Notes under the pieces: generated by a model
What the model saw: only the letters and a program-made list of their open reading frames with translations
Told to the model about the DNA's origin: nothing
Databases searched by the model: none
Part shown: piece after piece, positions 22,833 to 49,165 of the stretch
Layout: every line of letters begins with the position of its first letter
How positions within the stretch are numbered: position 1 is the stretch's first letter
Source: Candidatus Cloacimonadales bacterium
GTDB taxonomy: Bacteria > Cloacimonadota > Cloacimonadia > Cloacimonadales > JAIOQZ01
Length of the DNA: 64,000 nucleotides
Direction: 5' to 3'
Assembly (NCBI GenBank): GCA_963665815.1
Contig: OY762463.1
Location: 64,001-128,000, forward strand
Made by a program: the position numbers and the translations under genes

Positions 22833-22842
22833 TTTTCCTCCT

Positions 22843-22888
22843 TTATCGCATCACTCTAAACAAAAACGCCATCACACCCAAAATCCTG
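22843..22888 (-). pseudogene. 3' remnant of a paralogous phage repressor gene (RILGVMAFLFRVMR*)
   Basis: 22849-22888 matches 24581-24620 (RILGEMAFLFRVMR*) with 3 substitutions; cut exactly at left end L2. Confidence 0.85.
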
Positions 22889-23255: not shown

Positions 23256-23334
23256 AAAAAGAAATGATCGGAATATTTTTCTGATTATTTGACAAACGAA
23301 ATCGTTATGTAATTTTTTACATAAGGAGATAAAT

Positions 23335-30748: not shown

Positions 30749-32285
30749 AATTACTCAGAAAGATTACAAAAACTTTACTGCAATTGCTTCCAAGACTTCT
30801 AGTGTAAAGCCATTTCCCAATGATACACCGACAAAGCAGAAGCAAAGAATTAAAAAGGCTACCGGTAATGACTGGAAAGCCTTCTCTTATTTCTGCAAAA
30901 ACTATTTTCCACACATTTTCAAACTTACATTTGCAGATGCTCATCAGGAGATGTTTGAGATAACAGAAGAATATGACGGCATAACTTCCATTACCGGATT
31001 CAGAGGTTTAGGAAAAACTGTTTTAATGGGAGTGGTTTATCCAATCTGGAAAATTATCAAAGGTGAGAGATATGTAATTCATACTGCTGCAGATGCTGAT
31101 CTGGCTGAAGAAAGAACTGCTTTCACTTATAACGAACTTACTCAAAATAAAAGACTTCATACTGATTTAGATGGTTTACTTCCAATTTATAGAGATGAAT
31201 CAGACTTTTATCTTCAGAATAAATGCCGTATTAGAGCAAGAGGTATAAAACAATCCTTCAGAGGAAGTATTAATCCTCGCACTTCAACTCGTCCCGGATT
31301 AGTAGTCTGTGATGATATCGACAAAGAAGAAAATATCGGCAACCAATCCATTGGCAGAAAAAAGATGGATAAGATTGTGCAAGAGATTGGTGGAGCTTTA
31401 AATCCAGCGGGAAATGGCAAGATCATCTGGCTTGGGAACCTTGTTCATCCCAATTATGCAATCTGTCAGTTTCAGCAAAGTATCATTGATGAAATCAAAT
31501 CCGAAGATCAGGATTTTAATCAAGATTCTGTTCAGCATTTATTCGTTACGGAAAGAAGACTGCTTAGATTTCCGTTAGAGAATCCTTACGGAAATTCCGT
31601 GTGGGAAAAACAATATCCAACATCTGAAATCCCGAATCTGAAGAAGAAATTCGGATTAACAGGTTATCAAAGAGAGTTTCTTGGCAAGCCTGTTATCGAA
31701 GGCAATATGTTCAAATTTCATTGGTTTACCAAATATACTAAACTACCGAAACGATTTAAGAAAGTGTGGATGTATGCTGATCCAGCTTGGGGTGAGAAAG
31801 GTTGCTACAAAGCGATCATCTCAATAGGATATGATGGAATCAGGTTTTACATCATTCACGTGTGGATCAGGCAGACTGAGAACAGTAAGTTCTTTAGTTA
31901 TTACTATGATGCTTATCAGGAGTTATCAAAGAAATATGGTGTTAGATTCAGATCAGCAATGGAGACTAATTTTGGTCAGCATCGTATTCTTACTGATTTT
32001 GACAGATGGTGTAGAGAAAATAATCGCAATCCGATCTCTCACAGAATCAGAAGAATCAACAACGATAAAAACAAAGGCTTGAGAATAGAGAGAACTGATA
32101 CTGTAATTGAAACTGGCAAAGTTCAATTTCCTGATGGTCAGGATACTCCAACTCTTATCAATCAATTTCTAACTTATCCGGATGGATACGTGGATGGACC
32201 CGATGCTCTCGCAGGTTGCCTTGAACGCTTTCCTGAATATGATTGCGGAAGAAACAGAGTCAAAGTAAGGAGTTTTTCCTTTTGA
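30732..32285 (+). CDS. Phage terminase large subunit
   Basis: FRGLGKT, RPGLVVCDDID, YADPA, VDGPDA nuclease motifs. Confidence 0.85.
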   Translation: MQVVVKITQKDYKNFTAIASKTSSVKPFPNDTPTKQKQRIKKATGNDWKAFSYFCKNYFPHIFKLTFADAHQEMFEITEEYDGITSITGFRGLGKTVLMGVVYPIWKIIKGERYVIHTAADADLAEERTAFTYNELTQNKRLHTDLDGLLPIYRDESDFYLQNKCRIRARGIKQSFRGSINPRTSTRPGLVVCDDIDKEENIGNQSIGRKKMDKIVQEIGGALNPAGNGKIIWLGNLVHPNYAICQFQQSIIDEIKSEDQDFNQDSVQHLFVTERRLLRFPLENPYGNSVWEKQYPTSEIPNLKKKFGLTGYQREFLGKPVIEGNMFKFHWFTKYTKLPKRFKKVWMYADPAWGEKGCYKAIISIGYDGIRFYIIHVWIRQTENSKFFSYYYDAYQELSKKYGVRFRSAMETNFGQHRILTDFDRWCRENNRNPISHRIRRINNDKNKGLRIERTDTVIETGKVQFPDGQDTPTLINQFLTYPDGYVDGPDALAGCLERFPEYDCGRNRVKVRSFSF

Positions 32286-33172
32286 ATTATTTTGATCGAT
32301 TGATGTTTGAATACTACAGAGTACTCAACAATTCCTGGAAGAAGGAAATCAAAGACTCTGCAAAGCAAGCGATACAGATGCTATCTGATATTCCAAAGTC
32401 TGAAAGGCTAAATAAACGTCATATTGATGATATTATGCAAGTAATCAACTCAAACCTTAGCGAAGACTTTTCATCGCTTGTACGGCAGGATACAAAGGCA
32501 TTCATACAAAGAAATCTTATGCTTGGTCTCAATGATGTTGAAAAGCAGGTTCCACACAATACTTCAATTGGTTTGTATGGGATAAAAGAAAGAAAGCTTG
32601 AAACTCTGATCACAAAGCAGAATCTTTTCTGGATTGGTAACAAATACGGAACTGATATTGAAACCGGATTTAAGCAAACTTTGAAAGAAGCTGTTTCTTC
32701 AGGATATACAAGAGAAATGTTAACTGATAAACTAATAGAGCAGTTTCAGCATCTTGGAGAGAAATCACAACATTACTGGCAGGGATTAGCTGAACACACA
32801 GCTCTAAGGGTTAGAGAATTTGGAAGATTAGAAGGCTATAACAAAGCTGGAGCGAAAGGCTATAGATTAGTAGTAATTCTGGATGGAAGAACTTCTGAAA
32901 TTTGCAGAGCATTAGCAGCTCAGAATAAAGTTTATCCTCTTAATGAGGCAATTGATACGATGCAGGAATTAATGAATATTGATACCCAAAAGCATTCATT
33001 GGAATCCGTAAGAGAAATGACTAAAGAAATGGCACCGTGGGTTTCTGATAAGCAAATAGTAAGAAACTCCAACGGTGCTCCCATTGGAGTTTCTGGAAAT
33101 CATACTCCGTTTCCACCCTTTCACTGGAAGTGTAGGACAACTACGGAGATAAGCTTCAATTTAAATACTTAA
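32282..33172 (+). CDS. Phage minor head protein (Mu gpF-like)
   Basis: DGRTSEIC ... PPFHWKCRT; start uncertain. Confidence 0.8.
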   Translation: MNYFDRLMFEYYRVLNNSWKKEIKDSAKQAIQMLSDIPKSERLNKRHIDDIMQVINSNLSEDFSSLVRQDTKAFIQRNLMLGLNDVEKQVPHNTSIGLYGIKERKLETLITKQNLFWIGNKYGTDIETGFKQTLKEAVSSGYTREMLTDKLIEQFQHLGEKSQHYWQGLAEHTALRVREFGRLEGYNKAGAKGYRLVVILDGRTSEICRALAAQNKVYPLNEAIDTMQELMNIDTQKHSLESVREMTKEMAPWVSDKQIVRNSNGAPIGVSGNHTPFPPFHWKCRTTTEISFNLNT

Positions 33173-33183: not shown

Positions 33184-34149
33184 TTATGCTTTGAAATTGA
33201 TACATTTTTGTATTCCTTTCTCTATTGAAGAAAAATGTGTACAAAGTTTATCGTAATACTTCTTAATGCCATGTTCGAGAAAATGGAACGAGATTTCAGG
33301 TACTATTTCCTTAATCAAAGAATTATCTGCTTCAAATTTTTCTACATCATAACTTCTAGCTTCTAAAATATTAATTTTTGATTTTTTCCCCACAATATGT
33401 TCTATTGTTTCAATTAATTTATAAAGAGAACTTGCATTCCCTGGTGCAATATGAAAACACATGGATTTGATTCTTTTAGTATTTACAATTTCTTCTAGTT
33501 TTCTGAATACTAAAAGAAAATCATCAATAAAAGTAAAATCTATTAACTGACCACCACCCTCAATATTAACAATCTGATTATTAAGTATGGATTTCATAAA
33601 TGATGGTACTACTCTACCAGGAATATCATGTATCGAACCATAAATATTTGATAATCTCATAATTAAAAGCTGTGAATTGTAAATTTTTGAATAACTAATC
33701 CATAAATTTTCTGAAATTAATTTTGAGTGACCATAAATATTTATAGGTTCTTTATCGCAATCTTCAGAAACATTTCTTCCTTTTTCCCCATAAACTTCTC
33801 TGCTACTAGCAAAAATAATCCAAGGTGTTTTACTACACGATTTGATAGCATTTATTATGTTCTTAGTTCCTTCAATATTGGTCTGTATACATTTTTCTTT
33901 ATTAAGTTCGGCCTCTACGACTCTTGATACAGCTGCAAGATGAACAACTCCATCAGGATTTAATTTTGGTATAATCGACATACATTGATTGTAGTCACAT
34001 ATATCTAAACTAACAAAATCAGACTTTCTTCTGTTTATTTTTCTTTCTTTAATATCTAAGGAGATATAATTGTTTTCATCACCAAACTTCTGTAAAATTT
34101 CAGTTCCTAAAACACCTTCTCCACCAATTAATAATATTTTCTTTTTCAT
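33184..34149 (-). CDS. NAD-dependent epimerase/dehydratase (extended SDR)
   Basis: GGEGVLG, VHLAA, SSREVYG, YGHSK, RLSNIYG. Confidence 0.9.
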   Translation of the reverse strand: MKKKILLIGGEGVLGTEILQKFGDENNYISLDIKERKINRRKSDFVSLDICDYNQCMSIIPKLNPDGVVHLAAVSRVVEAELNKEKCIQTNIEGTKNIINAIKSCSKTPWIIFASSREVYGEKGRNVSEDCDKEPINIYGHSKLISENLWISYSKIYNSQLLIMRLSNIYGSIHDIPGRVVPSFMKSILNNQIVNIEGGGQLIDFTFIDDFLLVFRKLEEIVNTKRIKSMCFHIAPGNASSLYKLIETIEHIVGKKSKINILEARSYDVEKFEADNSLIKEIVPEISFHFLEHGIKKYYDKLCTHFSSIEKGIQKCINFKA

Positions 34150-37142
34150 TAACCATTAAACTCCGTAATTTTTTCTTGATAAATATGTTCTAATCCATAA
34201 TCAGCTAATACTTGATAAAAATCTCTGTTAATATAATTAATAGCTCGTGAAAAACCTATTGCCAAATCATTTAACAAATCCTTATTATAAGTAGTTTTTT
34301 TTATCTCTGTTTTATAATATTGGACTAATCTTTTAATGCCTTTTTCTGTCGCAAATAAGCCATATACATACGCAATATCTCCTTTTACATGGAGGTGTTC
34401 ATCTGTAAAAAATAATTTTAATAAAAGTTCCGATAATTCTATAAAATTCGTTCTGCTTAGAGCTTTTAACTCTTCTAAAAATAATATAGTGATACACTTA
34501 TGCCATTTAATATTTGATTTTAGTGCCTTTTTTATTGTATTCAAGACTCTTCTTTCATTACTAAGATTTATTATTGGTGTATTTGTACTTTTGTTTAATT
34601 TTTCTAAATATGTGTTTCTTAGTATATCTAAAGATAGATCACTTTTGCAAATCTTTTTCGTACAATTTAGAAGAAAAATAAAATCATCTTCCTGACAATA
34701 TTCTCTATTGATAGATCGTAAAATTCTTGACCATTCGTTCTCTTCAACAAGATCATGTATATGATTCTTCTTCACAAAGAAAACATCAATTTTATCTTTT
34801 AAAGAATCAAGAGTTCTTCTTCTTAGGTAAGAGATTTCTTCGTTTTGTTGCTCCTTTAATAAAGAAACGTATATGCTTTTAAGCATATCTACACTATTAT
34901 TGTCTGTTTGGTATCCCAATGCCAGTACAACTGTAGTTCTTTTCTCTATTGAATAAGTTGAAAATGATGTAAACAAAACTTCTCTTACAATATAAGGAAG
35001 ATTACCTAATGTTGCTGATGTTTTATTACGTGTCCAAATAGAACAATTTTTTAAAAGTTCATTAATCAATTCTTTAAGATTACTTTTTGTATACTTATAT
35101 CCTAGTTGAATTGACTGAGCAGCACAAAATGGATTATTTTTACATAATTTTTGAAATATATCTTCACTTTTCACAAAAATAGTAACGTATTTAGCTATTG
35201 TATACAACCATTCATTATCTCTACTTATAGAAATAATTTCATCAATATCACTTATATAATAATGAAAATAAACGGTAATTAATCGGAAGGCATTTGTATT
35301 ATGTGACACTCGTATTGGTGTATTTCTTCCTCCATCTTGCCTTATAGTTTTGGTTCTAATAAGAATCTTTAAAATTATGGTTAGCAAATCTTTTGTATTA
35401 GCTTCCGGATGCTCTTTTCTTAGAAATTGTTCAATATAAGGTTCATTGAAAGAGAAAGCTCTAAAATCTTTATAAAGCTTAAAAAAAAGTTTTGAAATAA
35501 GGCATAATATGTATAAACTACTTTTGTCATCATTAAAGACTTCACGATCTTTAAAAATAGTGAAAACAGGTTTTAGGAGGCATTGGTTAATTTCATTATT
35601 AAATTTTGATATTTCATCCATAATATTTTTTAAGATAAAGAAATCTATCTCCGAAGTTGATGATGGGAATCTTTTATGTTTATTCTTAAATAATCGAACA
35701 TTATGTATAGAAATTGGGTCTCCAGTTAAATTAAGATCTTTATTTAACTTAAATCTGTTTTCAATTTCAATATCAGAACAGTTATTAATGGAATATGGTT
35801 CTAATAGTAAGACTAATATTGAAGTATCAGTAATAAATCTTTTAATTTTTTCAACATTATCATTTTGACAGAGAGCAATAAATCTAATTTTTAACTCTAC
35901 AAGATCATTCAGTATTTTCTTAAGTAATTCATCGTTGTGAAAATCATCAATGAAGTCTAGGACAATAACTATGGAATGCTTTTTAATAAATTCATCTATT
36001 GTAGCATTACTAATAAAATCAGTAATGAAATAGCGCCATTTTTTTATGTTATTAAAGATAATATTTTGAGATTTATCATATTGCTCAATTTTTTTTACAT
36101 TTAAATAAAACCATATACTTCTTTCTTGTTGACTATTGGCAACAAGCGACAAATACTTTCCTGATATAGTTTTTCCATAGCCATGTTGTGCTGTAATTAT
36201 TATTGATCTTGAATCGTGAATTATGTTCTCTATTTTATAAGGGTGCTGATGAAGAGTTTTAAATGAGGGATACCATACATCATCAACACTTTCTAAAAAA
36301 CTATCTTTCTGAAAACTAACTTTCTCACGATCAATAATTTTGCTTCTAACTGATGCTATATCGATATTTAAAGGGACTGCAAAAAAAGTGTAGTTTTTAC
36401 CTTTTATTGAATATGGATAAATTGATACATTTTCATGGTGAAGTTGAAAATTTGTTTCATTATAAACCTGAACCAAGATTTCAGTAAAGACTTTTTCTAA
36501 TTCTGTTTTTGGATGTCGTGGTTTTACTAAATTAGATTCATTAGTAATAAATTTTGAAAGAGCAATTGAGTACGGTGACTTATCAATATCCTTAAATCCA
36601 CCTTGGGCAAAATTACCATGAGTTGTTGAAGTAACTAACATTAGTGATTCAAAAGCAACTGATTTCCTTTTTAATAATGTCTGTAATGAGTCACGACCTG
36701 CAACTTTTGTTAATAGTTGATTTCTACATACATCGAGAACAATGATTACATTTCCACTATAACTTATTTGTATATTATCAATTACATCAGCTATAGATAT
36801 GCCAGATAATCTGTTACCTTCAGCATAAACAGAATCATCACTTTGAATAAAAATTTCTTCACCTTCAATTCCATATCCATGTCCTACAATATATAGAAAT
36901 ATTAACTCATTACCTGATTGATCGGCATGTCTCGCTGCACTTGATATTAAGTGAATTAAGTCTTCTCTCTTATTAATCAATACTGGATAATCTTCATGGT
37001 AGGTCCACATCGGGAAAAATGAACTTCTTTCTACGCTTTTAAAACTATTGAGAATAATATCAGCACTTGGATAAGCTGAAATCAAGGGCTCGAAGTTATT
37101 TTCATAACTCATTGCAACAAAAAGAGCATATCCTTTTTTCAT
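34149..37142 (-). CDS. Caspase (C14)-like peptidase + NACHT/STAND NTPase + HEAT-like repeats (NLR-like), 997 aa
   Basis: Catalytic dyad YIVGHG and VLDVCR; Walker A variant AQHGYGKT; Walker B VLDFIDDF; C-terminal helical repeats (RNKTSATLG, RTTVVLALG). Confidence 0.75.
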   Translation of the reverse strand: MKKGYALFVAMSYENNFEPLISAYPSADIILNSFKSVERSSFFPMWTYHEDYPVLINKREDLIHLISSAARHADQSGNELIFLYIVGHGYGIEGEEIFIQSDDSVYAEGNRLSGISIADVIDNIQISYSGNVIIVLDVCRNQLLTKVAGRDSLQTLLKRKSVAFESLMLVTSTTHGNFAQGGFKDIDKSPYSIALSKFITNESNLVKPRHPKTELEKVFTEILVQVYNETNFQLHHENVSIYPYSIKGKNYTFFAVPLNIDIASVRSKIIDREKVSFQKDSFLESVDDVWYPSFKTLHQHPYKIENIIHDSRSIIITAQHGYGKTISGKYLSLVANSQQERSIWFYLNVKKIEQYDKSQNIIFNNIKKWRYFITDFISNATIDEFIKKHSIVIVLDFIDDFHNDELLKKILNDLVELKIRFIALCQNDNVEKIKRFITDTSILVLLLEPYSINNCSDIEIENRFKLNKDLNLTGDPISIHNVRLFKNKHKRFPSSTSEIDFFILKNIMDEISKFNNEINQCLLKPVFTIFKDREVFNDDKSSLYILCLISKLFFKLYKDFRAFSFNEPYIEQFLRKEHPEANTKDLLTIILKILIRTKTIRQDGGRNTPIRVSHNTNAFRLITVYFHYYISDIDEIISISRDNEWLYTIAKYVTIFVKSEDIFQKLCKNNPFCAAQSIQLGYKYTKSNLKELINELLKNCSIWTRNKTSATLGNLPYIVREVLFTSFSTYSIEKRTTVVLALGYQTDNNSVDMLKSIYVSLLKEQQNEEISYLRRRTLDSLKDKIDVFFVKKNHIHDLVEENEWSRILRSINREYCQEDDFIFLLNCTKKICKSDLSLDILRNTYLEKLNKSTNTPIINLSNERRVLNTIKKALKSNIKWHKCITILFLEELKALSRTNFIELSELLLKLFFTDEHLHVKGDIAYVYGLFATEKGIKRLVQYYKTEIKKTTYNKDLLNDLAIGFSRAINYINRDFYQVLADYGLEHIYQEKITEFNG

Positions 37143-37150
37143 ATTAAAAC

Positions 37151-37465
37151 TCAGGAGTTTGTAAATTCAAGTTCAATAGCACCATCAACCTGTCCTGAAA
37201 CTATTACAATCTCACCTTTCATTGAAAACCCTAGTTTTATCGTTACTTTAGATAATTTTCTAGTAGAATTTTTTGTAACATTACTACTTTCAATATTTGC
37301 AATTAATGGAGCAATTAAATCATTTAACTGGTTCTGTATTTCTTCAATCTTGATTTTAACGAATTCATTTTTTTTTCTTCCATACGTTCTTGAAGTCGAG
37401 AAAGTTTCTTGTTTTTCTGTGATATCTGTCTGTATAGCTTTTACAATTATACTCTGATCAGTCAT
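37151..37465 (-). CDS. Small peptidase-co-occurring (Pepco/Trypco-like) protein
   Basis: Helix followed by beta hairpins LSKVTIKLGFSMKGEIVIVSGQVDGAIELEF; 8 bp upstream of the caspase gene. Confidence 0.7.
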   Translation of the reverse strand: MTDQSIIVKAIQTDITEKQETFSTSRTYGRKKNEFVKIKIEEIQNQLNDLIAPLIANIESSNVTKNSTRKLSKVTIKLGFSMKGEIVIVSGQVDGAIELEFTNS

Positions 37466-37499
37466 AATCTTTCCTCCTACTTAGATTGATTTTATTTTG

Positions 37500-38090
37500 C
37501 TACTTAATATATTTTGCTTCTTTTAACAAACAAATTATTGCTTCCATTTGAATGTGACGATATTTATTACAACTATTTGATTCTGTTTTTAATTTACCCG
37601 TAATCGAGTCAAAAGTTATGAAATGAATTTTATTTTTTCTTGCAAATGCTTCAAGAATATGATTTTTTCCCAATAAATCAAACAAGCCAGTTTGATTAGG
37701 ATTAACAAAATCATTATAATAATTATTTTTATTCCTAGTATTTATCCTTTCTATGTTTTTCTCAATATCACTTGATATGCATTTAAAGATTAGGACTTCA
37801 ACTCTTTTTAAGGTTTTCACCAAATCAATGAATCTAGTTTTTGATGATCTAAAATCAAAACATCCATCGAGAACAATGTCTATAGGTAAATTCTTTATTA
37901 GATTTAAGTGTTGAAACAGTAAGTCATACCTATTATATCTTTTAGATTCAATAATATTGCCAGCCATATCATGAGCTTTGCCATACTGGCTAGGAGATAA
38001 ATATAACAAATTAAATCTCGTACTAATCAATTGCGAAATGGATGTTTTGTAGGAACCAGGCATACCATACAACAGAATTATACTATTCAT
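37500..38090 (-). CDS. P-loop small-molecule/nucleotide kinase (AAA_33-like)
   Basis: LLYGMPGSYKT, IVLDGCF, ERINTR lid motif. Confidence 0.75.
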   Translation of the reverse strand: MNSIILLYGMPGSYKTSISQLISTRFNLLYLSPSQYGKAHDMAGNIIESKRYNRYDLLFQHLNLIKNLPIDIVLDGCFDFRSSKTRFIDLVKTLKRVEVLIFKCISSDIEKNIERINTRNKNNYYNDFVNPNQTGLFDLLGKNHILEAFARKNKIHFITFDSITGKLKTESNSCNKYRHIQMEAIICLLKEAKYIK

Positions 38091-38829
38091 TTTTAATAAA
38101 CCTTTGTAACGACCATTTCTGTTCATAAGTTAATATGTTATCTGTTAGCGAAAAAATAACTTTATTTCTGGAATCATTCATTGAGCTAATCAACCAGCTT
38201 GTAAATTCGCGTATTTGAGAAAACTCGTCAGATTTATTAAAATACTCGAAAATATTTATCTTCCTTATATGATAACTTACTTTATTATAATCAAGAACCC
38301 ATTTGCTAGAATTAAATAAAGACTCTATTTCTCTCTCTGTGTATACGCTTTTTCTTAAAGGTTGAATGTGTTTTTTCAGCTTTATCAGTATGTTTTTAGA
38401 GAACTCATCCTCTGGAGAAACAAAATGATGAGATAAAATAACACAATCATTACTTATTGCTAATCTATCTATTTCTTTGAGTAACTCTTCCATCTCAGAG
38501 GGTGTAAAATATTGTAGTAATTGTCTAATTAAAAAAAAAGATGTGGAGTTATCAATAATAGGAATATCCCTGACGTCTGAGCAAATCGATTTCAAATTAT
38601 TATTACTATACCTTTTACACATTTCTGATGAACAGTCAATCCCAATAATATTCTTAGTCTTCAATTTTTTGCTTATGATACCAGTTCCACAACCTAACTC
38701 TAAAATCAAGCCTTTTAAGTCAGGTAACCCATGGATAAAAATATCTAATAACTCTTTATCTTGTCTCCATGATGTTTCAACATCATATTGTTCTGCAAGT
38801 TGGTTAAAATGATTAATAATTTTTTGCAT
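38083..38829 (-). CDS. Class I SAM-dependent methyltransferase
   Basis: F...A..YD, ILELGCGTG, GIDCSSEM, DVRDIP. Confidence 0.88.
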   Translation of the reverse strand: MQKIINHFNQLAEQYDVETSWRQDKELLDIFIHGLPDLKGLILELGCGTGIISKKLKTKNIIGIDCSSEMCKRYSNNNLKSICSDVRDIPIIDNSTSFFLIRQLLQYFTPSEMEELLKEIDRLAISNDCVILSHHFVSPEDEFSKNILIKLKKHIQPLRKSVYTEREIESLFNSSKWVLDYNKVSYHIRKINIFEYFNKSDEFSQIREFTSWLISSMNDSRNKVIFSLTDNILTYEQKWSLQRFIKNE

Positions 38830-40084
38830 TTTCTAATATATCCACTGTTGATGATACTGTGCCATCAGTATCTATTTTGAATAAAGGATTATTTGCATTC
38901 TGTTTTACAAAAACAGATGGTGCATTTGATGTTGAGATTCCAGTAAGATTCGCTGATTGCTCGTGAATGACATTAAACGTGAAATAACTCTTTTTATTAA
39001 TTCCCTGAACCATTTCAAAGACTCTTGCTCCTTTAAATAGAATAAGTGTACAACCAAGCAATAAAGCTATCAATTCATCACTGAATTCAAGAGGACTAAT
39101 ACCGCTTCCTTTGGGTCCATTCTTAAAAACATTAAATCTTCCATTAAGCTGTTCTTTTAATTTATTGAAACTATGCATTTCTAGTATATCAATTGCATCA
39201 AAATAAGAAAAATCATTTGCATATTGTCCGTTTCTTGGCACCAGGGTTATCTCAAGTGTTGAGTTAAACTCTAAAAGGTTTAAAATGATTTTCATGTCAA
39301 AAATTGATTCTATATAATCATCTGTAAAAAATACAAGTTTTGTATTAGGTTGTGACACATCATGTAAAAAATCATTAATGTGATCGATAACAAAGTTGTC
39401 GTTCAGTTTTTTTAACATCAAGTCTTCTATTGTAGAGTTAGAAATCTTCTTTCCATTATCAAAAAATTTAATAATGTTATCAGTAGTTAGCTTTGATGGT
39501 ATACAAGATTTATAAGAATTTTTAACATCATATCCAACCGTCCCAGAGATTACAGAGAATCTGATTTGATCTTTTAAGGGTAATGAGTCCATAGTATTTA
39601 ACATATGAAAACATACATTTTTTCCTAACTCATTAAAATCTTTATTAATGTGGATGGGAAAAAATTGATCAGAAAAAAGAACTATCTTAACTATTCTATT
39701 AATAATATCAGTTGTTTGCTGTATAGATGCAATATCTATAACAGAACTATTATATTCAGTAATTTTGTAAGTCAAAATTTCAACAATAAGGTTTCCTAAC
39801 TCATCAGAATCATAATAGTCATAAGCAATTGTCTCTGTATCCAATAGTGAGTTGTAAAAGTCTTTAACCAATGTTACTATCCAAATTTTAAAGTTCTCTT
39901 TATCATCCTTTTCATGCAAATTATTGAATTTATTGCTAACTGTAATTGTACCTGGGAGAAAAAATTCACTAATTAAACTTGTTGATGATGTGTTTTTCTT
40001 ATTATAAATTAGGTAATCATATACTTCTATGGCATATTCTTCGATATTGTTTGATTTACTTTTTATTCTTGCTTTTTGTTTCAT
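38813..40084 (-). CDS. DUF89/ARMT1-like metal-dependent phosphatase (divergent)
   Basis: FFTDDYIESIFD, LVPR...ANDFS and LFKGARVFE align with the DUF89 DNxGE..D / ND / KG..NYE motifs. Confidence 0.6.
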   Translation of the reverse strand: MKQKARIKSKSNNIEEYAIEVYDYLIYNKKNTSSTSLISEFFLPGTITVSNKFNNLHEKDDKENFKIWIVTLVKDFYNSLLDTETIAYDYYDSDELGNLIVEILTYKITEYNSSVIDIASIQQTTDIINRIVKIVLFSDQFFPIHINKDFNELGKNVCFHMLNTMDSLPLKDQIRFSVISGTVGYDVKNSYKSCIPSKLTTDNIIKFFDNGKKISNSTIEDLMLKKLNDNFVIDHINDFLHDVSQPNTKLVFFTDDYIESIFDMKIILNLLEFNSTLEITLVPRNGQYANDFSYFDAIDILEMHSFNKLKEQLNGRFNVFKNGPKGSGISPLEFSDELIALLLGCTLILFKGARVFEMVQGINKKSYFTFNVIHEQSANLTGISTSNAPSVFVKQNANNPLFKIDTDGTVSSTVDILENAKNY

Positions 40085-40143
40085 AATTTTTAAGCTCCTT
40101 TCCTACAAAATTTCGTTACATATTTATTAGTTACTTATTTTGT

Positions 40144-40824
40144 TCATCTATCACTATAATCACCTGACATTATTATAGGTAAATGTCCCAAATCTCTTAA
40201 ATATTGTACAACTCGATGACCTTCATATTCGACTTCATAAACAGTAACTCCAGAGAATTTTGATATATGTTTGGCATGAATTTGGTCAAGTCTATGGTTA
40301 TTTGATACAAATATAGATATTTCTTTCTTATTGTGCATTGATTCATGAAACAGTGGTTTTAAATCCCAGATTTTCTTCTTGAAAAGACTACATTTATAAG
40401 TATTAATTTTTTGGGTTATCCAGCGTAAATCTTTGTTTTTTATCATTAAGTGTGGAGATAAAAACGTCTGAGGTGAAAATGCAATCACCTTACCCATTTT
40501 CAATAAAAGCGAAAACAAAATTGCTGCATATCCTCCCATAGAATTACCAACAAAGATAACTTCATTTGGGGTTATTGCTTCAATTTGCTTAAATAAAAAT
40601 GCTTTCATTGATTCAATGTCATTTGCAACATCAATAATGCCATTTTGATACCAACATTGTGAAAAATCTCGAATAAATATTTTGTTTTCATCAAGGATTC
40701 TTGAGGCACTATAGAATTCAAATGGTGGCATAGCAATACCAGCATTTAATCCTCCAAAAAAAACAAACAGTTTTTTGCTTTCTTTATGTAACTCAATTTC
40801 AACTGATTTTCTACTATTTTTCAT
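40144..40824 (-). CDS. Alpha/beta hydrolase-fold protein
   Basis: Nucleophile elbow GNSMGG, AFSPQT, C-terminal D and GH. Confidence 0.75.
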   Translation of the reverse strand: MKNSRKSVEIELHKESKKLFVFFGGLNAGIAMPPFEFYSASRILDENKIFIRDFSQCWYQNGIIDVANDIESMKAFLFKQIEAITPNEVIFVGNSMGGYAAILFSLLLKMGKVIAFSPQTFLSPHLMIKNKDLRWITQKINTYKCSLFKKKIWDLKPLFHESMHNKKEISIFVSNNHRLDQIHAKHISKFSGVTVYEVEYEGHRVVQYLRDLGHLPIIMSGDYSDR

Positions 40825-40982: not shown

Positions 40983-41381
40983 ATGAGAAAAAATAAAAAT
41001 GACGTGTCCGGCTTTATGACGGATTGGAAAGAGATTAACTTCTTTGAAGAGCATGAGTTTGAATGCTCTTGTTGTGGAATAGTAATTATTTCAAAGAAAC
41101 TTGTTTTGATGCTAGATTTAGCTCGTGAGTTATCAGAAACAGCCTTTGTTATTACAAGCGGATACAGATGCAAAAAACACAACAAGGAAGTTGGTGGAGT
41201 TAGGAGTTCATCTCACTTGAAGGGATTTGCCGTAGATATTGCTGTTCCTGATAATATTACTCGTCTTAAAATCCTCAGAGGATTAATCATTGCCGGATTC
41301 CGAAGAATAGGCATTGGAAAAGACTTTATCCATGTAGATATTGATCCTACAAAACCAAATAACATCTGGTTGTACAAATGA
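40983..41381 (+). CDS. Peptidase M15A endolysin
   Basis: EFECSCCG, ITSGYRC..HN..VGG...S.HL.G.AVDI, FIHVD. Confidence 0.9.
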   Translation: MRKNKNDVSGFMTDWKEINFFEEHEFECSCCGIVIISKKLVLMLDLARELSETAFVITSGYRCKKHNKEVGGVRSSSHLKGFAVDIAVPDNITRLKILRGLIIAGFRRIGIGKDFIHVDIDPTKPNNIWLYK

Positions 41382-41836
41382 TACCTGTAACCACTGAAAC
41401 AACTCTCAAAATCCTCAATCTCAATTCAGATGAAAGAATCCTTTCTCTCTTTGAAGAACATTCTGATATTGTTATGCTTTGGCTAAAAAGGGTAACTGAT
41501 GAATCGATCTGGACAGAAATCAAAGAAGGAACTGCTGAAGCTGATATTCTCAATGTTTATAAGTTTGCCTATTGCTACTATTTACTGTCTTCAACTATAG
41601 AATTTCTCAACTTAAAGACCATCGGAGAAGGCATTATCAAAACAACCGGAATCGATCAGCAATCAACAGAGCTGCTCTCCGGTATTGAGATCAAATCATT
41701 CAAAAATCAATTAGAAATCAAAGCTCTGGAACTCATTTCAGAACATATCAATGCTGATGGATTTGATCGTCTTCGTGAACTGAAACTTGGTACATCCAAG
41801 CTTAAACAAACCAGAACCAGAGCTACTGTAATATGA
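41378..41836 (+). CDS. Phage hypothetical protein (possible head-tail connector)
   Basis: Coupled ORF in the late operon. Confidence 0.5.
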   Translation: MIPVTTETTLKILNLNSDERILSLFEEHSDIVMLWLKRVTDESIWTEIKEGTAEADILNVYKFAYCYYLLSSTIEFLNLKTIGEGIIKTTGIDQQSTELLSGIEIKSFKNQLEIKALELISEHINADGFDRLRELKLGTSKLKQTRTRATVI

Positions 41837-43851: not shown

Positions 43852-43982
43852 AAATGAAAAATGAAAAATTAAAAGGAAGAAAAAAGATGATACATCGAGG
43901 ATTGAGAGACAGTTACTTAACTTTTGCAAACAACCATCTCTTAATTCTTAATTATTAATTCTTAACTCATTTGGAGGTTGGA

Positions 43983-45719
43983 TTGAAAGCTAAGAAAATC
44001 GTAAAAAAGGGAGAACTTAGAAACGTAGAGGTTGAGCTGGTATCTTTGCTTTTTGATGATATGACTCCTGCAAATCAGAAAGGATTTGTGATCAAATCAG
44101 CAAACGGAAAGAGCTATCGAATTAAAGGAAGCTCCAAGAAGTTTAAAAGTGAAACAAAAGGTTCACAAGGTCGATTATACGTCACTTTGATGGAACCGGA
44201 AGTTGAAGACGCACAGGGTGATTTTTATACTGTAGATGAAATCCAGAAAGCATGTGATTATTTCTCAAAACATGGAATGGTTGGAAAGAATGATATCAAC
44301 CACAATAATCATCCGGTAAATGATTTCACAGTAGCTGAGAACTATATTCTCAAAACTGCTGATGAAGTGCATTTTCCTGATGTCAAAGTCGGCTCATGGG
44401 TTCAAGTTCTCAAGTGTGTTGATCTTACATCTCCACTCTGGAAGAAAGTTGAGAAAGGTGATTTTAACGGTGTTTCCATCTATGGTAGAGCAGATGATTT
44501 GGGAGAAACTTCTGCAGCTCTCAAAGCTATCAAAGATGAGCTTTCAGGATTGAAAGAACTTCAAAAATCAATGCAGGATAAAGAACGTCAGACAGAGCTT
44601 GAAAAAGCGATTACAGAGTTGGAATCCAAGCTTTCTGAACTTGAGAAAAGTCTTGGTGATTCTTCACTTCGGGAGGCAGTCAAAAGCATTGAGAAGTCGC
44701 TTAACAGCTTATCTGTCACAATGAATAAAGCTATTTCTAAATCAATCAAAGGAGAACCATCAGAGTTTGAAGGTGATCGTGAAGTTGTTATCAACGGTGA
44801 GAAAATTTTTGTCAAAGCTGCACATCGTGAAATCTACAAAGGCATTGCTGATGTTGATTCAGGTAAAAAGATGAATATTCTTACCCCAAACACAACATCT
44901 CTTTTCATTGATGAAGTTGTTGGATCAAAACCGGGTGATACTTTAACAGACATCTCAGTAATTCCACTCTTGAAAGATGAAAGCATCGATGTTGGTTTAA
45001 TCGAAGATTTGATCTTTAAGAATCAGCTTGATGGAGCATTATCCGCTCAGGATGTTACTTCAGCCGATATGCAATGCCCAACTGGTATCCTCAATGCTGA
45101 ATTTACTCTCGGAAGAGATATTGTGGAATTTTACAAAGACAAATACGGAGAAGATGCCTTCGGTGCTTATGTTGAACAGCATATTGCTAAGAAAGCAGAA
45201 AAAGCGATCCGTCTTTTACTTTTCAAAGGTGATAGAAGTTCTGCAGCAGCTAAACTAAAGGCTTTAAATGGTGTCATCAAACTAGCAACTGACAATTCAG
45301 ATATCACCACTATAAATCCAACAACTTATGCTGAATGGTCAGAACGCTTTGAACAGACTCTTCTTCTCTTCTCAGATGAGATGCTGGAAGAACAGGAAAA
45401 CTTCAAAATGTATGTATCTCATAAGGACCTGATACGTATCAGAACTGAGCTTGGAAAACGTGAGACCAATAAAGGTGATAAACTACTTCTTGAAGGTGGA
45501 AAAGTGTCATTTGCCGGTATCCCTGTTAAAGCTCGATTAATGCCTGACAATTACATCATCGTTGGTTTGACCAAGTTTATTATAATCGGTTATAGAACCG
45601 ATGCAGAGCTTAAAGTTGAGCATCATGGTTCAGACTGGAAATACCACTGGTATATCAGAATCAGACCGGGCATCACCTACGTTCCAAACTTTGTAAAAAT
45701 CTACCAATTAACCGAATAG
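43983..45719 (+). CDS. Fused XkdF-like prohead protease / coiled-coil scaffold / major capsid protein
   Basis: VSL..D..PAN, DAQGDF, GSWV, GDFNGVSIYG; central coiled coil; C-terminal HK97-like part (LFKGD, LNGVIK, FAGIPV); RBS GGAGG then TTG. Confidence 0.7.
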   Translation: MKAKKIVKKGELRNVEVELVSLLFDDMTPANQKGFVIKSANGKSYRIKGSSKKFKSETKGSQGRLYVTLMEPEVEDAQGDFYTVDEIQKACDYFSKHGMVGKNDINHNNHPVNDFTVAENYILKTADEVHFPDVKVGSWVQVLKCVDLTSPLWKKVEKGDFNGVSIYGRADDLGETSAALKAIKDELSGLKELQKSMQDKERQTELEKAITELESKLSELEKSLGDSSLREAVKSIEKSLNSLSVTMNKAISKSIKGEPSEFEGDREVVINGEKIFVKAAHREIYKGIADVDSGKKMNILTPNTTSLFIDEVVGSKPGDTLTDISVIPLLKDESIDVGLIEDLIFKNQLDGALSAQDVTSADMQCPTGILNAEFTLGRDIVEFYKDKYGEDAFGAYVEQHIAKKAEKAIRLLLFKGDRSSAAAKLKALNGVIKLATDNSDITTINPTTYAEWSERFEQTLLLFSDEMLEEQENFKMYVSHKDLIRIRTELGKRETNKGDKLLLEGGKVSFAGIPVKARLMPDNYIIVGLTKFIIIGYRTDAELKVEHHGSDWKYHWYIRIRPGITYVPNFVKIYQLTE

Positions 45720-48121: not shown

Positions 48122-48151
48122 TTCCCATTTCCTATTGTTTTAAGCAATAAC

Positions 48152-49165
48152 TCATTTCAAAAGAATCTTGTTATAAACATTTATATAAGCTGTGATCATT
48201 TTTTCACGGCTAAATTTTGATTTTGCCCAATTGTGACAGTTAACTCTATTAATGTATCTAATATTTTTTACTGCAAAAACTGCTTGTGAAATATCATTTA
48301 CAAGAAAACCCGTTTTCGAGTCATCAATTAATTCCGGCATTGAGCCTTTATTAAAAGCTATTACTGGTGTTCCGCAAAGCATTGCTTCTGCTACACTTAA
48401 GCCAAATGGTTCACAAAAATTAATTGGGTGCAATAACGCATAAGCATTTCCCAAGAGTTTATCACGTTCTTTCACTCCTGAATTTCCAACGAATATGATA
48501 TCTTTGTTGTTAATTAATGGTTTTATCTTGTTTTCATAGTACTTTTCATCTTGGATCAAACCTGAAACAACAAGCTTTCTTCCTGATTTTTTAGCAATTT
48601 GAATGGCTTCATAAGTACCCTTTTCAGGGTGAATTCGACCAAAATACAAAAGGTAATCTTTTGCTACTGGTTTAAATGTAAAGTTGGAAGTGTCAATTCC
48701 ATTGTATACAGTTGCAATATAATCCAATTCAGGGCTTCGGTCAGAATTACTGATAGAAACATAATAGTTATCATTATTGTATTTTTTAAAAACAGGAATT
48801 ATTTTTGGAGATGAAAATCCATGAATAGTAGTAACCATTGGAGTTTGTATTAATCTAGAAAAACTAAGAGGTAAAAAATCGAAATTATTATGTATCAAAT
48901 CGAAATCATTCGCCATCTCCATTAAGTTACTTATATGCAAACATTCCCATACTTTAGGTTCAATATTTTGATCTTCTGCATATGCTGTTTCACAAACATA
49001 CTCCAACTTTCCTTTTGTAATAGAATTCCCTGTGGCAAAAAGAGTTACATCAAAACCTTTTTCTACAAGTCCTTCAGCAATATTAGATGTCACCTGCTCC
49101 CAAGGGCCATATTTTATGGGTGGTGTACGCCATGCAATTGGTGATAATACAGCAATTTTCATCAT
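48152..49165 (-). CDS. GT4 glycosyltransferase
   Basis: PP..YGPWE, GRIHPEKG, EPFGLSVAEAM. Confidence 0.92.
   Translation of the reverse strand: MMKIAVLSPIAWRTPPIKYGPWEQVTSNIAEGLVEKGFDVTLFATGNSITKGKLEYVCETAYAEDQNIEPKVWECLHISNLMEMANDFDLIHNNFDFLPLSFSRLIQTPMVTTIHGFSSPKIIPVFKKYNNDNYYVSISNSDRSPELDYIATVYNGIDTSNFTFKPVAKDYLLYFGRIHPEKGTYEAIQIAKKSGRKLVVSGLIQDEKYYENKIKPLINNKDIIFVGNSGVKERDKLLGNAYALLHPINFCEPFGLSVAEAMLCGTPVIAFNKGSMPELIDDSKTGFLVNDISQAVFAVKNIRYINRVNCHNWAKSKFSREKMITAYINVYNKILLK

What the first reader, a model, noticed from the sequence alone, without database searches (positions are those of the whole stretch)
33184..40824. Candidate undescribed immune operon: caspase-NACHT-HEAT sensor and Pepco-like partner embedded among small-molecule-modifying enzymes
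Seen: seven same-strand, very AT-rich genes sit antisense between the phage minor-head and endolysin genes. The order is alpha/beta hydrolase, DUF89-like phosphatase, SAM methyltransferase, P-loop kinase, 104-aa Pepco/Trypco-like protein, 997-aa caspase(H/C dyad intact)-STAND-HEAT protein, and SDR epimerase. Several junctions overlap (38813/38829, 38083/38090, and TAATG at 34149) or are only 8-34 bp apart, which implies one coupled operon. Known: effector-NACHT/STAND-repeat proteins (Avs, bacterial NLR-like) are anti-phage pattern receptors, and Pepco/Trypco domains accompany peptidases in conflict systems. Inference: the phosphatase/methylase/kinase/epimerase set may make or modify a nucleotide or sugar-nucleotide (signal, antiviral metabolite or modification) coupled to a proteolytic death switch. 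I know of no described system with this gene combination.
Basis: partly seen in the sequence, partly recalled or inferred. Interest (0 to 1): 0.85.

Follow-up and report, generated by a model that had tools for sequence, protein, structure and literature searches.

The report
Caspase sensor pair nested among enzymes
A prophage cargo slot that usually holds anti-phage systems here carries a very rare caspase-armed sensor and its small, probably pore-forming partner, wedged inside a set of small-molecule enzymes whose link to this death switch is suggestive but unproven.

Summary
Seven tightly packed minus-strand genes (33184-40824) have GC 0.27-0.30 against 0.37 in the flanks.

In 13 related elements from 10 Cloacimonadota genomes this position is a variable cargo slot. 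It holds recognised defence systems in 10 of the 13 and none of the seven genes.

The core is a Pepco-like 104-aa protein plus a caspase-NACHT-helical-repeat protein. This kind is already described (Kaur 2020) and was tested for a trypsin-Avs4 relative (Evans 2025 preprint). This family is tiny: 9 hits at E<=1e-10, self included, among 1.84 billion representatives.

The enzymes look separable. A kinase-methyltransferase fusion followed by a similar SDR exists without the pair in genome G216. In a Parabeggiatoa MAG the pair is instead coupled to carbamoyltransferase, radical-SAM and NUDIX genes.

However, enzymes adjoin the pair in every neighbourhood I could see, and one metagenome contig probably carries both DUF89-like and Pepco-like relatives.

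Verdict: a new variant of a known abortive-infection module. An integrated metabolite-linked system stays open at about 25%.

This scan had found Pepco-caspase-STAND pairs before on other DNA.

The parts
40144..40824 (-). 226-aa small alpha/beta-hydrolase with a GNSMGG nucleophile elbow; first gene of the block, with its own Shine-Dalgarno-like site
   Evidence: ORF. Pfam hits are all below cut-off (UPF0227 19.8 bits against 21; Hydrolase_4). NCBIfam XcbB/CpsF 23.7 bits against cut-off 125. ESM Atlas feature score 0.98 to alpha/beta-hydrolase clusters. No Arg-Gly dipeptide in the translation.
38813..40084 (-). 423-aa DUF89/ARMT1-like putative metal-dependent phosphatase with a divergent N-terminal half
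   Evidence: Pfam ARMT1-like_dom E 1.6e-12, 47.7 bits, residues 213-364. ESM Atlas 0.93, with all 30 hits in the ARMT1-like set. Only one relative in 5.8 billion clusters, P0019 at 51% identity. Found in 1 of 232 genomes of the class, the window's own.
38083..38829 (-). 248-aa class I SAM methyltransferase; overlaps the DUF89 gene by 17 nt
   Evidence: Methyltransf_25/11, E about 1e-12. Aligns over residues 3-239 to the MTase half of the G216 kinase-MTase fusion (26% identity, E 2e-21).
37500..38126 (-). 208-aa P-loop kinase-like protein (Walker A GMPGSYKT); overlaps the MTase gene
   Evidence: AAA_18/AAA_33 below cut-off. PADLOC VakA E 6.9e-6. 30% identical to the N-terminal half of a 449-aa kinase-MTase fusion in G216.
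37151..37465 (-). 104-aa Pepco/Trypco1-like small protein, the putative protease-activated pore former; strong AGGAGG site upstream
   Evidence: Pfam Pepco E 3.8e-5, 24.6 bits against cut-off 27. 4 of 4 subfamily members hit Pepco at E<=0.1 and 3 of 4 hit Trypco1. 46% identical to the 103-aa gene upstream of the L023 caspase-STAND gene. Relatives P0021 and P0022 at 51-52%.
34149..37142 (-). 997-aa caspase (1-257) - NACHT-like NTPase (about 300-470) - helical/winged-helix region - helical-repeat (about 640-997) protein; starts 8 nt after the Pepco-like gene
   Evidence: Peptidase_C14 27.8 bits. H88, C139, K324, D396. Model pLDDT 76.6. Fold matches to NLRC4/NOD2/NLRP3/Avs4 and to MALT1/caspase-3, Z 19-20.5.
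33184..34149 (-). 321-aa extended-SDR nucleotide-sugar epimerase/dehydratase-type enzyme; its ATG overlaps the caspase gene's stop codon (TAATG)
   Evidence: Pfam Epimerase E 7e-35. Below every NCBIfam equivalog cut-off (best is dTDP-glucose 4,6-dehydratase, 100 bits against 365). PDB relatives are UDP-glucose 4-epimerases and dTDP-glucose dehydratases.
32243..33172 (+). Mu-F-like head morphogenesis gene; left border of the variable cargo slot
   Evidence: Phage_Mu_F 27.3 bits. 55-73% identical homologues border the slot in all 13 related loci.
40983..41381 (+). Peptidase_M15_3 endolysin-type gene; right border of the slot
   Evidence: Pfam E 2.9e-16. Homologues at the right border in 8 of 13 related loci; in the other 5 the border is the next gene, the homologue of 41378-41836.

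Best explanation
The block is horizontally acquired cargo in the variable slot of a Mu-like prophage or phage-derived element of a Cloacimonadota bacterium. The slot is expressed antisense to the head genes and in relatives mostly holds anti-phage systems.

The working core is a two-gene abortive-infection module. The 997-aa protein is an NLR-like sensor. Its C-terminal helical repeats recognise a trigger, most likely a phage protein. The NACHT NTPase then oligomerises, which brings the N-terminal caspase domains together and activates them. The caspase cuts the 104-aa Pepco-like protein, which then permeabilises the membrane and kills or arrests the infected cell.

Shown here: the architecture, the intact catalytic and NTPase residues, the conserved gene pair, the location in a defence slot, and a weak predicted caspase-Pepco interface. 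Inferred by analogy: trigger, oligomerisation, cleavage and pore formation.

The five enzymes are best read as one or two separable small-molecule modules that travel with the pair rather than as obligatory parts of the switch. The modules are DUF89 phosphatase - methyltransferase - kinase, with the SDR and perhaps the hydrolase. They probably act on a nucleotide, nucleotide-sugar or sugar-phosphate. The pair sits nested between the kinase and the SDR. What the enzymes make is unknown.
For: Location:
- 13 related loci from 10 genomes share terS-terL-MuF-[slot]-(M15)-three small genes-portal-capsid. None has any of the seven genes (tblastn, E 1e-5).
- The slot is 0.7-12.9 kb long and lower in GC than the rest of the locus in 13 of 13.
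- PADLOC finds defence proteins in the slot in 10 of 13: RM types I, II and III; Gabija; four BREX genes; PDC-M68; PDC-S41; spbK-like; Lit-like; RmrA-like.
- 51 of 61 slot ORFs are antisense to the head genes.

The pair:
- The caspase fold, the NACHT-like fold and the invariant H/C/Walker residues are present.
- The Pepco-like gene lies 8 nt upstream in both the window and L023, where the two Pepco-like proteins are 46% identical.
- 4 of 4 subfamily members hit Pfam Pepco.
- Evans et al. 2025 (sections 8 and 10 read) showed that a Pepco plus a protease-Avs4 alone give portal-triggered toxicity in E. coli.
- Complex prediction, caspase 1-265 with the Pepco-like protein: weak support. Score 0.48, best of 3 controls 0.00. 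The mark was reached by 58 of 80 solved complexes and 2 of 110 mismatched pairs, but at 0.60 or under by only 7 of the 80 and by both mismatches. The runs agree in at least 85% of contacts and partner pLDDT is at least 65.

Separability of the enzymes:
- G216 has a 449-aa kinase-MTase fusion. Both halves match the window's two genes, and it is followed by an epimerase-type SDR. No caspase, Pepco, DUF89 or hydrolase is within the 14 kb fetched.
- L023 has the pair with carbamoyltransferase, radical-SAM and NUDIX genes instead.
- Three Shine-Dalgarno-led sub-blocks fit this reading: hydrolase; DUF89-MTase-kinase; Pepco-caspase-SDR.
Against: - The pair is nested inside the enzyme set, not beside it. 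The SDR start overlaps the caspase stop codon. In L023 the carbamoyltransferase start overlaps it by 4 nt. That is the signature of co-translated partners.
- No minus-strand terminator-like site lies inside the block.
- All seven genes have a similar, very low GC.
- The only known relative of the DUF89-like gene and one of the two relatives of the Pepco-like gene are equally diverged (51%). Each is recorded on a JGI contig of 11,344 bases. If that is one contig, the linkage has survived long divergence.
- Nucleotide- or sugar-type enzymes adjoin the pair in every neighbourhood I could see (2 read in full, 1 inferred).
- The Pepco-like protein lacks the C-terminal tail whose removal activates SsPepco, so the activation step cannot be the same.
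- The slot is not only for defence. L013 and L017 carry secreted T9SS proteins and L022 an IS transposase.
- No function was tested.
Confidence: 0.5

Rival explanations
1. Integrated metabolite-linked NLR system. The enzymes and the pair form one defence system. The variable tailoring enzymes make, modify or destroy a nucleotide or nucleotide-sugar. That molecule is either sensed by the conserved helical-repeat domain, or is a second antiviral output released together with the proteolytic death switch. The enzyme sets would be phosphatase/methylase/kinase/epimerase here and carbamoyltransferase/radical-SAM/NUDIX in L023.
For: - Nesting of the pair between the kinase and the SDR. The caspase-to-SDR 1-nt overlap here parallels the caspase-to-carbamoyltransferase 4-nt overlap in L023.
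- Probable co-occurrence of DUF89-like and Pepco-like relatives on one 11,344-base contig at 51% identity.
- The C-terminal repeat region is at least as conserved across the family as the catalytic domains. Mean pairwise identity is 0.280 against 0.243 for the caspase and 0.259 for the NACHT region, over 15 pairs. That is not the pattern of a fast-diversifying sensor.
- The radical-SAM protein of L023 matches MoaA, viperin and QueE models, all nucleotide-acting, over its first 100 residues only.
- The window kinase gives a weak PADLOC hit to a model named VakA. I did not find what that name stands for.
Against: - The enzyme sets in the window and L023 share no family.
- MTase + kinase + SDR exist without the pair in G216.
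- Pepco-protease pairs work as two-gene systems (Evans 2025, section 8).
- The SDR match between the window and G216 is only 24% identity, which any two extended SDRs may reach.
- Overlapping genes also arise between unrelated neighbours in compact islands.
Confidence: 0.25
2. Dual-effector protease system. The alpha/beta-hydrolase is a second latent effector cut by the same caspase, as in the caspase/alpha-beta-hydrolase pairs of Kaur 2020 and the LcCaspase-LcHydrolase pair of Evans 2025. The four remaining enzymes are unrelated cargo.
For: - Kaur et al. 2020 (passage read) state that in their vWA-MoxR systems a caspase-superfamily domain always comes with a neighbouring alpha/beta-hydrolase gene.
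- Evans 2025 (section 7 read) showed that such a hydrolase is a zymogen cut twice by its caspase.
- The block holds both a caspase and a small alpha/beta-hydrolase on one strand.
Against: - The hydrolase is four genes and 3 kb from the caspase gene, not adjacent.
- It has 226 residues, whereas the three LcHydrolase fragments sum to about 33 kDa.
- It has no Arg-Gly dipeptide, the conserved cleavage motif (translation).
- No hydrolase accompanies the pair in L023, and none was found in that genome with this query.
- I could not compare it with LcHydrolase itself, because no tool gave me that sequence.
Confidence: 0.1
3. Not anti-phage. The enzymes decorate a host surface glycan (lysogenic conversion, for example phosphate or methyl groups on a sugar). 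The caspase-NLR pair acts as an addiction or host cell-death module that stabilises the element, or the block is inert passenger DNA in a decaying prophage.
For: - The slot also carries non-defence cargo: secreted T9SS proteins in L013 and L017.
- The hydrolase weakly resembles XcbB/CpsF capsule proteins and Asp2-type esterase clusters.
- The SDR is of the nucleotide-sugar type.
- Earlier notes on this genome describe phosphate- and methyl-decorated glycan operons (not tested here).
- The element looks incomplete. There are no tail genes after the capsid gene in the window and the MuA-like ORF is only 380 aa.
Against: - The block holds no glycosyltransferase, flippase or membrane protein. None of the seven has a clear hydrophobic span.
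- All seven ORFs are intact with conserved catalytic residues.
- 10 of 13 sister slots hold defence systems.
- The protease-Pepco kind has been shown to respond to phage proteins (Evans 2025).
Confidence: 0.1

Closest known systems
Pepco-protease effector modules, e.g. SsPepco-SsAvs4 of Streptomyces subrutilus (Evans et al. 2025, bioRxiv 10.1101/2025.11.14.688446; catalogued as Trypco1/2 by Kaur et al. 2020, PMC7159879)
   Same: A small protein of about 100 aa in the Pepco/Trypco family is encoded immediately upstream of a protease fused to a STAND NTPase and a repeat sensor. Both lie on one strand among defence genes. The expected logic is sensor, then protease, then cleaved pore former.
   Different: - The protease is a caspase (C14), not trypsin-like.
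- The NTPase matches no Avs model in PADLOC.
- The Pepco-like protein only reaches sub-threshold Pfam scores.
- It ends 2-3 residues after its last conserved strand (ELEFT), so it has no C-terminal tail to remove.
- The pair is nested in an enzyme operon.
- The family is extremely rare.
Caspase / alpha-beta-hydrolase zymogen pairs (LcCaspase-LcHydrolase, Evans 2025 section 7; caspase-hydrolase pairing in Kaur 2020)
   Same: A caspase-superfamily protease and a small alpha/beta-hydrolase lie in one same-strand block.
   Different: The two genes are not adjacent, there is no R|G motif, the hydrolase is shorter, and the hydrolase is absent from the L023 relative.
Bacterial NLR-like sensors (Avs/AVAST, bNACHT). 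The names are recalled; Avs4 (8dgf) and Avs3 (8dgc) appear among the fold matches
   Same: N-terminal effector, central NACHT-type NTPase and C-terminal repeats. Fold matches to NLRC4, NOD2, NLRP3 and Avs4.
   Different: No PADLOC Avs or NLR model matches at E<=0.1. The effector acts through a separate small protein. The sensor repeats are not more variable than the catalytic domains.
Defence hotspots of temperate phages and satellites (P2/P4-type hotspots; recalled, not read here)
   Same: A fixed position between conserved phage genes holds different, mostly antisense, low-GC defence cargo in different relatives.
   Different: The slot lies inside the head-morphogenesis module of a Mu-like element of Cloacimonadota. 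It also carries secreted proteins and an IS.

Membership tests
Pepco-protease effector module (Evans 2025; Kaur 2020) | Small protein belonging to the Pepco/Trypco family | tested here: inconclusive
   Pfam Pepco 24.6 bits, E 3.8e-5, below the cut-off of 27. 4 of 4 subfamily members hit Pepco at E<=0.1 and 3 of 4 hit Trypco1. The monomer model is poor (pLDDT 59): strands plus one central helix. No solved relative.
Pepco-protease effector module (Evans 2025; Kaur 2020) | Encoded next to a protease gene on the same strand, as a conserved pair | tested here: met
   8-nt gap in the window. Same order and 8-nt gap in L023 with 46% identity.
Pepco-protease effector module (Evans 2025; Kaur 2020) | Protease catalytically competent and fused to a sensor such as a STAND NTPase | tested here: met
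   H88 and C139 invariant. Caspase fold Z 20.5. NACHT-like fold. Walker A and B intact.
Pepco-protease effector module (Evans 2025; Kaur 2020) | Charged, disordered C-terminal tail removed by cleavage after a conserved Ile (SsPepco I97) | tested here: not met
   All four subfamily members end 1-2 residues after the conserved ...IELEFT strand, so there is no tail. A different cleavage site would be needed. Candidates are the basic, low-confidence loops at residues 17-33 and 67-71.
Pepco-protease effector module (Evans 2025; Kaur 2020) | Protease binds and cleaves the small protein; the cleaved form permeabilises membranes; toxicity depends on a phage trigger | not testable with these tools
   Only a predicted interface is available: weak support, score 0.48 against a best control of 0.00.
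NACHT-type STAND / bacterial NLR-like (Avs, bNACHT) | P-loop NTPase with Walker A/B and a NACHT-like fold followed by repeats | tested here: met
   GxGKT 321-325 and D396 invariant. Foldseek top hits are NLRC4, NOD2 and NLRP3, E about 4e-7, prob 1.0, though TM is only 0.2-0.45 on the multidomain model. Helical pairs over 640-997.
NACHT-type STAND / bacterial NLR-like (Avs, bNACHT) | Match to a curated NACHT or Avs sequence model | tested here: not met
   The window protein has no Pfam NACHT hit; nSTAND3 reaches 20.7 bits against a cut-off of 27.2. The L023 relative scores NACHT 23.3 against 26.7. No PADLOC Avs/NLR model at E<=0.1.
Caspase / alpha-beta-hydrolase zymogen module | Hydrolase gene adjacent to the caspase gene, with conserved R|G cleavage motifs | tested here: not met
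   Four genes lie between them. There is no Arg-Gly dipeptide in the 226-aa translation. No direct comparison with LcHydrolase was possible.
DUF89 / ARMT1-like damage-control phosphatases | Pfam ARMT1-like domain above cut-off; equivalog-level match | tested here: inconclusive
   The domain criterion is met (47.7 bits against 25, but only profile positions 124-281 of 311). The NCBIfam equivalog is far below cut-off (21.3 against 440). Metal-binding motifs were judged only from memory.
Any system in PADLOC-DB v2 | System-defining proteins matched | tested here: not met
   Seven proteins were scanned. Only weak single hits appeared: mad2 2.3e-5, VakA 6.9e-6, IetA 1.6e-3, caspase 0.046. The library dates from 2023.

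The most novel reading that the evidence does not exclude
The pair and its neighbours form a modular 'metabolite-linked NLR' defence operon. A conserved caspase-NACHT-repeat sensor with a tail-less Pepco-like executioner is translationally coupled to interchangeable nucleotide or nucleotide-sugar tailoring cassettes: DUF89 phosphatase/methylase/kinase/epimerase here, carbamoyltransferase/radical-SAM/NUDIX in Parabeggiatoa. A small molecule made or altered by the cassette then either gates the sensor or is a second antiviral output. No such coupling of an NLR-type protease switch to small-molecule tailoring enzymes turned up in my literature searches.
Probability: 0.25. Interest if true: 0.8.

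Novelty: new variant of a known kind. Interest (0 to 1): 0.5.

Why it matters
If the simple reading holds, this adds three things:
- a very rare, caspase-armed branch to the newly characterised Pepco-protease defence modules;
- a Pepco form that cannot be activated by C-terminal trimming, so it points to a second activation mode;
- a defence-cargo slot in the head module of Mu-like elements of Cloacimonadota, a phylum with no cultured phage-host model. That slot can be mined for further systems. Several slot ORFs have no PADLOC or Pfam match.

If the integrated reading holds, it would be a first case of an NLR-type proteolytic death switch wired to small-molecule tailoring enzymes. It would link protein-sensing and metabolite-based immunity in bacteria.

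Tried and rejected
Searches for more family members and their neighbourhoods that found nothing:
- Word-index search with the 997-aa protein: self only.
- Two metagenome scans, one with alignment A2 and one with P0002.
- Three viral-contig scans, with A2, P0008 and P0019.
- blastn of the block against phage records.
- tblastn of the 997-aa and DUF89-like proteins against plasmids.
- Profile A2 in 55 genomes of the Parabeggiatoa order: 1 of 55, the known one.
- The window's DUF89-like and hydrolase proteins in genome G041: none.
- The look-up of encoding contigs was closed, so the contigs of P0002-P0009, P0019 and P0021 could not be read.

Other steps that led nowhere:
- Alignment A1 had no stretch conserved enough for a locus scan. 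I rebuilt it without the partial sequences as A2.
- Sequencing runs: 3 holders, all from one sample of one study, and no RNA holder listed. Co-transcription could therefore not be examined.
- The laid contigs only confirm the assembly.
- The promoter scan was at chance level: 52 found against 53 expected.
- PDB sequence searches for the kinase, DUF89 and hydrolase proteins gave nothing below E 0.08.
- Literature searches found nothing for DUF89 with 'phage defense' or 'conflict systems', nor for 'anti-phage' + NACHT + caspase-like + epimerase.
- The search for VakA with viperin returned only unrelated papers, so the meaning of the PADLOC name VakA stays unknown to me.

Ideas considered and dropped:
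- An RNA-repair reading of kinase + phosphatase + methylase (Pnkp/Hen1-like), because there is no ligase and no supporting hit.
- The L023 radical-SAM protein as a viperin, because only the generic first 100 residues match.

Supplementary files of Evans 2025, which may list Pepco neighbourhoods, were not available.

Full report
OBSERVATION. They are packed at +59, -17, -44, +34, +8 and -1 nt. GC is 0.25-0.31 across 33-41 kb against about 0.37 on either side. GC3 is 0.17-0.27 in the seven genes against 0.31-0.37 in six flanking phage genes.

Pfam confirms the DUF89/ARMT1-like domain, the class I methyltransferase, the extended-SDR epimerase/dehydratase and the C14 caspase above its cut-offs. 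The Pepco, alpha/beta-hydrolase, P-loop kinase and STAND assignments rest on sub-threshold hits. NCBIfam adds only weak matches, among them 'caspase, EACC1-associated type'. PADLOC recognises no system.

An AlphaFold2 model of the 997-aa protein (pLDDT 76.6) has three parts. The N-terminal domain has a caspase fold (MALT1 Z 20.5, caspase-3 Z 19.4). The centre's best Foldseek matches are the NACHT proteins NLRC4, NOD2 and NLRP3, and also Avs4. The C-terminal third consists of helical repeats. His88, Cys139, Lys324 and Asp396 are in place, and the corresponding columns are invariant in the family. None of the seven proteins has a clear membrane span.

WHERE IT SITS. The window holds a Mu-like element from about 24.5 to 46.5 kb. 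Its genes are a CI-type repressor, Mu-transposase and MuB-like genes, DUF3164, terminase, Mu-F, then the block, then M15 peptidase, portal and a protease-capsid fusion.

A DNA search of 40 relatives plus the window's own genome matched the head genes in 19 of 41 genomes. Outside the own genome, nothing matched the part of the query that corresponds to the block. I fetched 13 such loci from 10 genomes. All 13 keep the backbone at 33-82% protein identity. None has a relative of any of the seven genes at E 1e-5.

Between the Mu-F homologue and the M15 or next gene lies a slot of 718 to 12,861 bases. It is lower in GC than the rest of the locus in 13 of 13. PADLOC found defence proteins there in 10 of the 13 (61 ORFs from my own simple ORF caller):
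- type II RM (L010);
- PDC-M68 (L011, and an A-like gene in L016);
- a GajB-like helicase (L012);
- Gabija plus type I RM (L014);
- type I RM plus an RmrA-like gene (L015);
- a Lit-like gene and a methylase (L016);
- an spbK-like gene and PDC-S41 (L017);
- BrxP, BrxC, PglZ and BrxL (L018);
- type III RM (L019);
- type I RM (L020).

The other three loci differ. One slot is nearly empty (L021), one holds an IS transposase (L022) and one holds three T9SS-tailed secreted proteins (L013). L017 also carries two secreted proteins. In all, 51 of 61 slot ORFs are antisense to the head genes. The block therefore occupies a cargo slot that is mainly, but not only, used for defence.

THE PAIR. The 997-aa protein is almost an orphan. 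The word-index search returned only itself. An exhaustive phmmer scan of 1.84 billion representatives returned 17 proteins at E<=0.001. Nine were at E<=1e-10, self included, and seven of the weaker ones share only the caspase domain. The relatives are singletons on contigs of 7-17 kb.

Only one neighbourhood could be fetched: L023 from a Candidatus Parabeggiatoa MAG. There a 103-aa gene, 46% identical to the window's 104-aa gene, lies 8 nt upstream of a 996-aa caspase-STAND gene. All four known members of this small-protein subfamily hit Pfam Pepco at E<=0.1, and three of four hit Trypco1.

I read the abstract and sections 4, 7, 8 and 10. Pepco, EACC1, an MBL-fold enzyme and an alpha/beta-hydrolase are latent effectors released by an adjacent protease that is fused to diverse sensors. 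SsPepco with the trypsin-type SsAvs4 is sufficient for portal-triggered toxicity in E. coli. [quoted passage not shown]

The window's protein differs in one respect. It and its three relatives end one or two residues after the conserved IELEFT strand, so there is no tail to remove. Any cleavage must be elsewhere, perhaps in the basic, low-confidence loops at 17-33 or 67-71.

A complex prediction of caspase residues 1-265 with the small protein gave weak support. The score was 0.48 and the best of three controls 0.00. That mark was reached by 58 of 80 solved complexes and 2 of 110 mismatched pairs, but at 0.60 or under by only 7 of the 80 and by both mismatches. The runs agree in at least 85% of contacts and partner pLDDT is at least 65.

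THE ENZYMES: ONE SYSTEM OR SEVERAL? Evidence for separability:
- A search of the class with the kinase found matches in 3 of 232 genomes, own included.
- In G216 the match is the N-terminal half of a 449-aa kinase-methyltransferase fusion. Its C-terminal half aligns with the whole of the window's methyltransferase (26% identity, E 2e-21).
- The next gene downstream in G216 is an epimerase-type SDR (24% identical to the window's). Upstream lie a second methyltransferase, an Mrr_cat-containing ORF and a weakly thymidylate-kinase-like ORF.
- No caspase, Pepco, DUF89 or hydrolase relative lies in those 14 kb.
- So methyltransferase and kinase work together (a Rosetta-stone fusion), probably with an SDR, without the pair.
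- Conversely, in L023 the pair is followed by a NodU-type carbamoyltransferase (start overlapping the caspase stop by 4 nt), a radical-SAM protein and a 529-aa NUDIX protein, and then by a split Septu PtuA. None of these is related to the window's enzymes.

Evidence for coupling:
- In the window the pair is nested between the kinase and the SDR, and the SDR start overlaps the caspase stop.
- There is no internal minus-strand terminator-like site.
- Composition is uniform across the seven genes.
- The single relative of the DUF89-like protein (P0019, 51%) and one of the two relatives of the Pepco-like protein (P0021, 51%) are both recorded on a JGI contig of 11,344 bases. I take this to be one contig but could not read it.
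- No full-length caspase-STAND relative of about 50% identity was seen. The only such piece is a 62-aa fragment on another contig. That contig may therefore end inside the gene or may carry another protease.

MECHANISM. I commit at about 0.5 to a two-gene abortive-infection switch that works like the Pepco-protease modules. The helical repeats sense a trigger, NACHT assembly activates the caspase, the Pepco-like protein is cleaved and the membrane is permeabilised. The enzymes are separable passengers acting on a nucleotide, nucleotide-sugar or sugar-phosphate.

The integrated alternative, at about 0.25, is that interchangeable tailoring cassettes supply or alter a small molecule tied to the sensor or to a second antiviral output. 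In its favour, enzymes adjoin the pair in every neighbourhood seen (two read, one inferred). Also, the repeat region is at least as conserved as the catalytic domains: 0.280 against 0.243 and 0.259 mean pairwise identity.

A dual-effector reading, with the hydrolase as a second substrate, draws on Kaur 2020 (passage read) and Evans 2025 section 7. It is weakened by the distance between the genes, by the hydrolase's size and by the lack of an Arg-Gly motif. A non-defence reading (surface-glycan conversion plus an addiction module) cannot be excluded.

NOVELTY. The kind (small Pepco/Trypco protein + protease + STAND sensor) is known, and this scan has met it before on other DNA. Four things are new here: the very rare caspase-NACHT family, the tail-less Pepco form, the nesting in an enzyme operon with a parallel in L023, and the cargo slot in Cloacimonadota Mu-like elements.

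My literature searches found no description of an NLR-type protease switch coupled to such enzymes. The library lacks most subscription journals, and the supplements of Evans 2025 were not available.

All functional statements are inference; nothing was tested at the bench. The host is named Cloacimonadota only by earlier notes.

Noticed in passing
L010-L022 (related loci), slot between the Mu-F homologue and the M15/next gene: A variable, low-GC, mostly antisense cargo slot inside the head module of Mu-like elements in 10 Cloacimonadota genomes. It holds RM I/II/III, BREX genes, Gabija, PDC-M68, PDC-S41, spbK-like and Lit-like genes. Several large slot ORFs have no PADLOC or Pfam match (for example L010:5690-6934, L018:12626-14380, L020:3655-6071, L019:3723-8474 with only weak beta-propeller hits). 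These are candidates for unknown defence genes.
   Followed up: partly
L023:7310-11817 (Ca. Parabeggiatoa MAG): A NodU-type carbamoyltransferase (700 aa), a radical-SAM protein (296 aa; MoaA/viperin/QueE-like over the first 100 residues only) and a 529-aa NUDIX protein follow the caspase-STAND gene with overlapping or near-overlapping junctions. This may be a nucleotide-modifying module in its own right. A PtuA (Septu) gene split into two ORFs follows at 13290-14524.
   Followed up: partly
L032:1559-8148 (G216:C4): A same-strand operon: a weakly thymidylate-kinase-like ORF, a 376-aa unknown, a 462-aa Mrr_cat-containing ORF, a methyltransferase, a 449-aa P-loop kinase-methyltransferase fusion and an epimerase-type SDR. 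Function unknown. In G257 three paralogous kinase-GNAT fusions match the same kinase.
   Followed up: partly
window 5149-9348: Type II CRISPR-Cas genes on the minus strand: Cas9 (986 aa; HNH_4, RuvC_III, Cas9 alpha-helical lobe), Cas1 and Cas2. I did not look for the repeat array or tracrRNA; the 4121-5149 gap is a likely place.
   Followed up: no
window 16068-24567: A second low-GC island (0.26-0.32) just outside the prophage repressor gene. It holds an OLD-family ATPase-TOPRIM protein (21102-22832, PADLOC Old E 1.5e-56), a 410-aa HNH_5 protein, and 168-, 756- and 602-aa ORFs with no Pfam or PADLOC match.
   Followed up: partly
window 24575-46481: The Mu-like element looks incomplete within the window. 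The Mu-transposase-like ORF has only 380 aa (Mu-transpos_C plus a partial rve). No tail genes follow the protease-capsid fusion gene (43971-45719). The next genes (46655-52334, minus strand, low GC) are GH130 and glycosyltransferase genes.
   Followed up: no
L012:5042-5146: A second copy of the last 36 codons of the Mu-F homologue (67% identical to the window's residues 268-303) lies inside the cargo slot. It looks like a scar of cargo exchange by recombination at the slot's left border.
   Followed up: no
window 33062-33094: A 14-bp-stem inverted repeat at the 3' end of the Mu-F gene, 90 nt downstream of the SDR stop codon on the minus strand. It is the only terminator-like site for the block (with a poor T-run). 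It is also where the Logan contigs of the source sample break.
   Followed up: partly
window 55572-55920: tmRNA gene on the minus strand, tag peptide ANENYALAA.
   Followed up: no
G041:C57:19833-20282 (L025): A second, unrelated open frame of about 994 aa with a caspase-like N-terminus (E 4.3e-6 to the family profile) in the same Parabeggiatoa genome.
   Followed up: no
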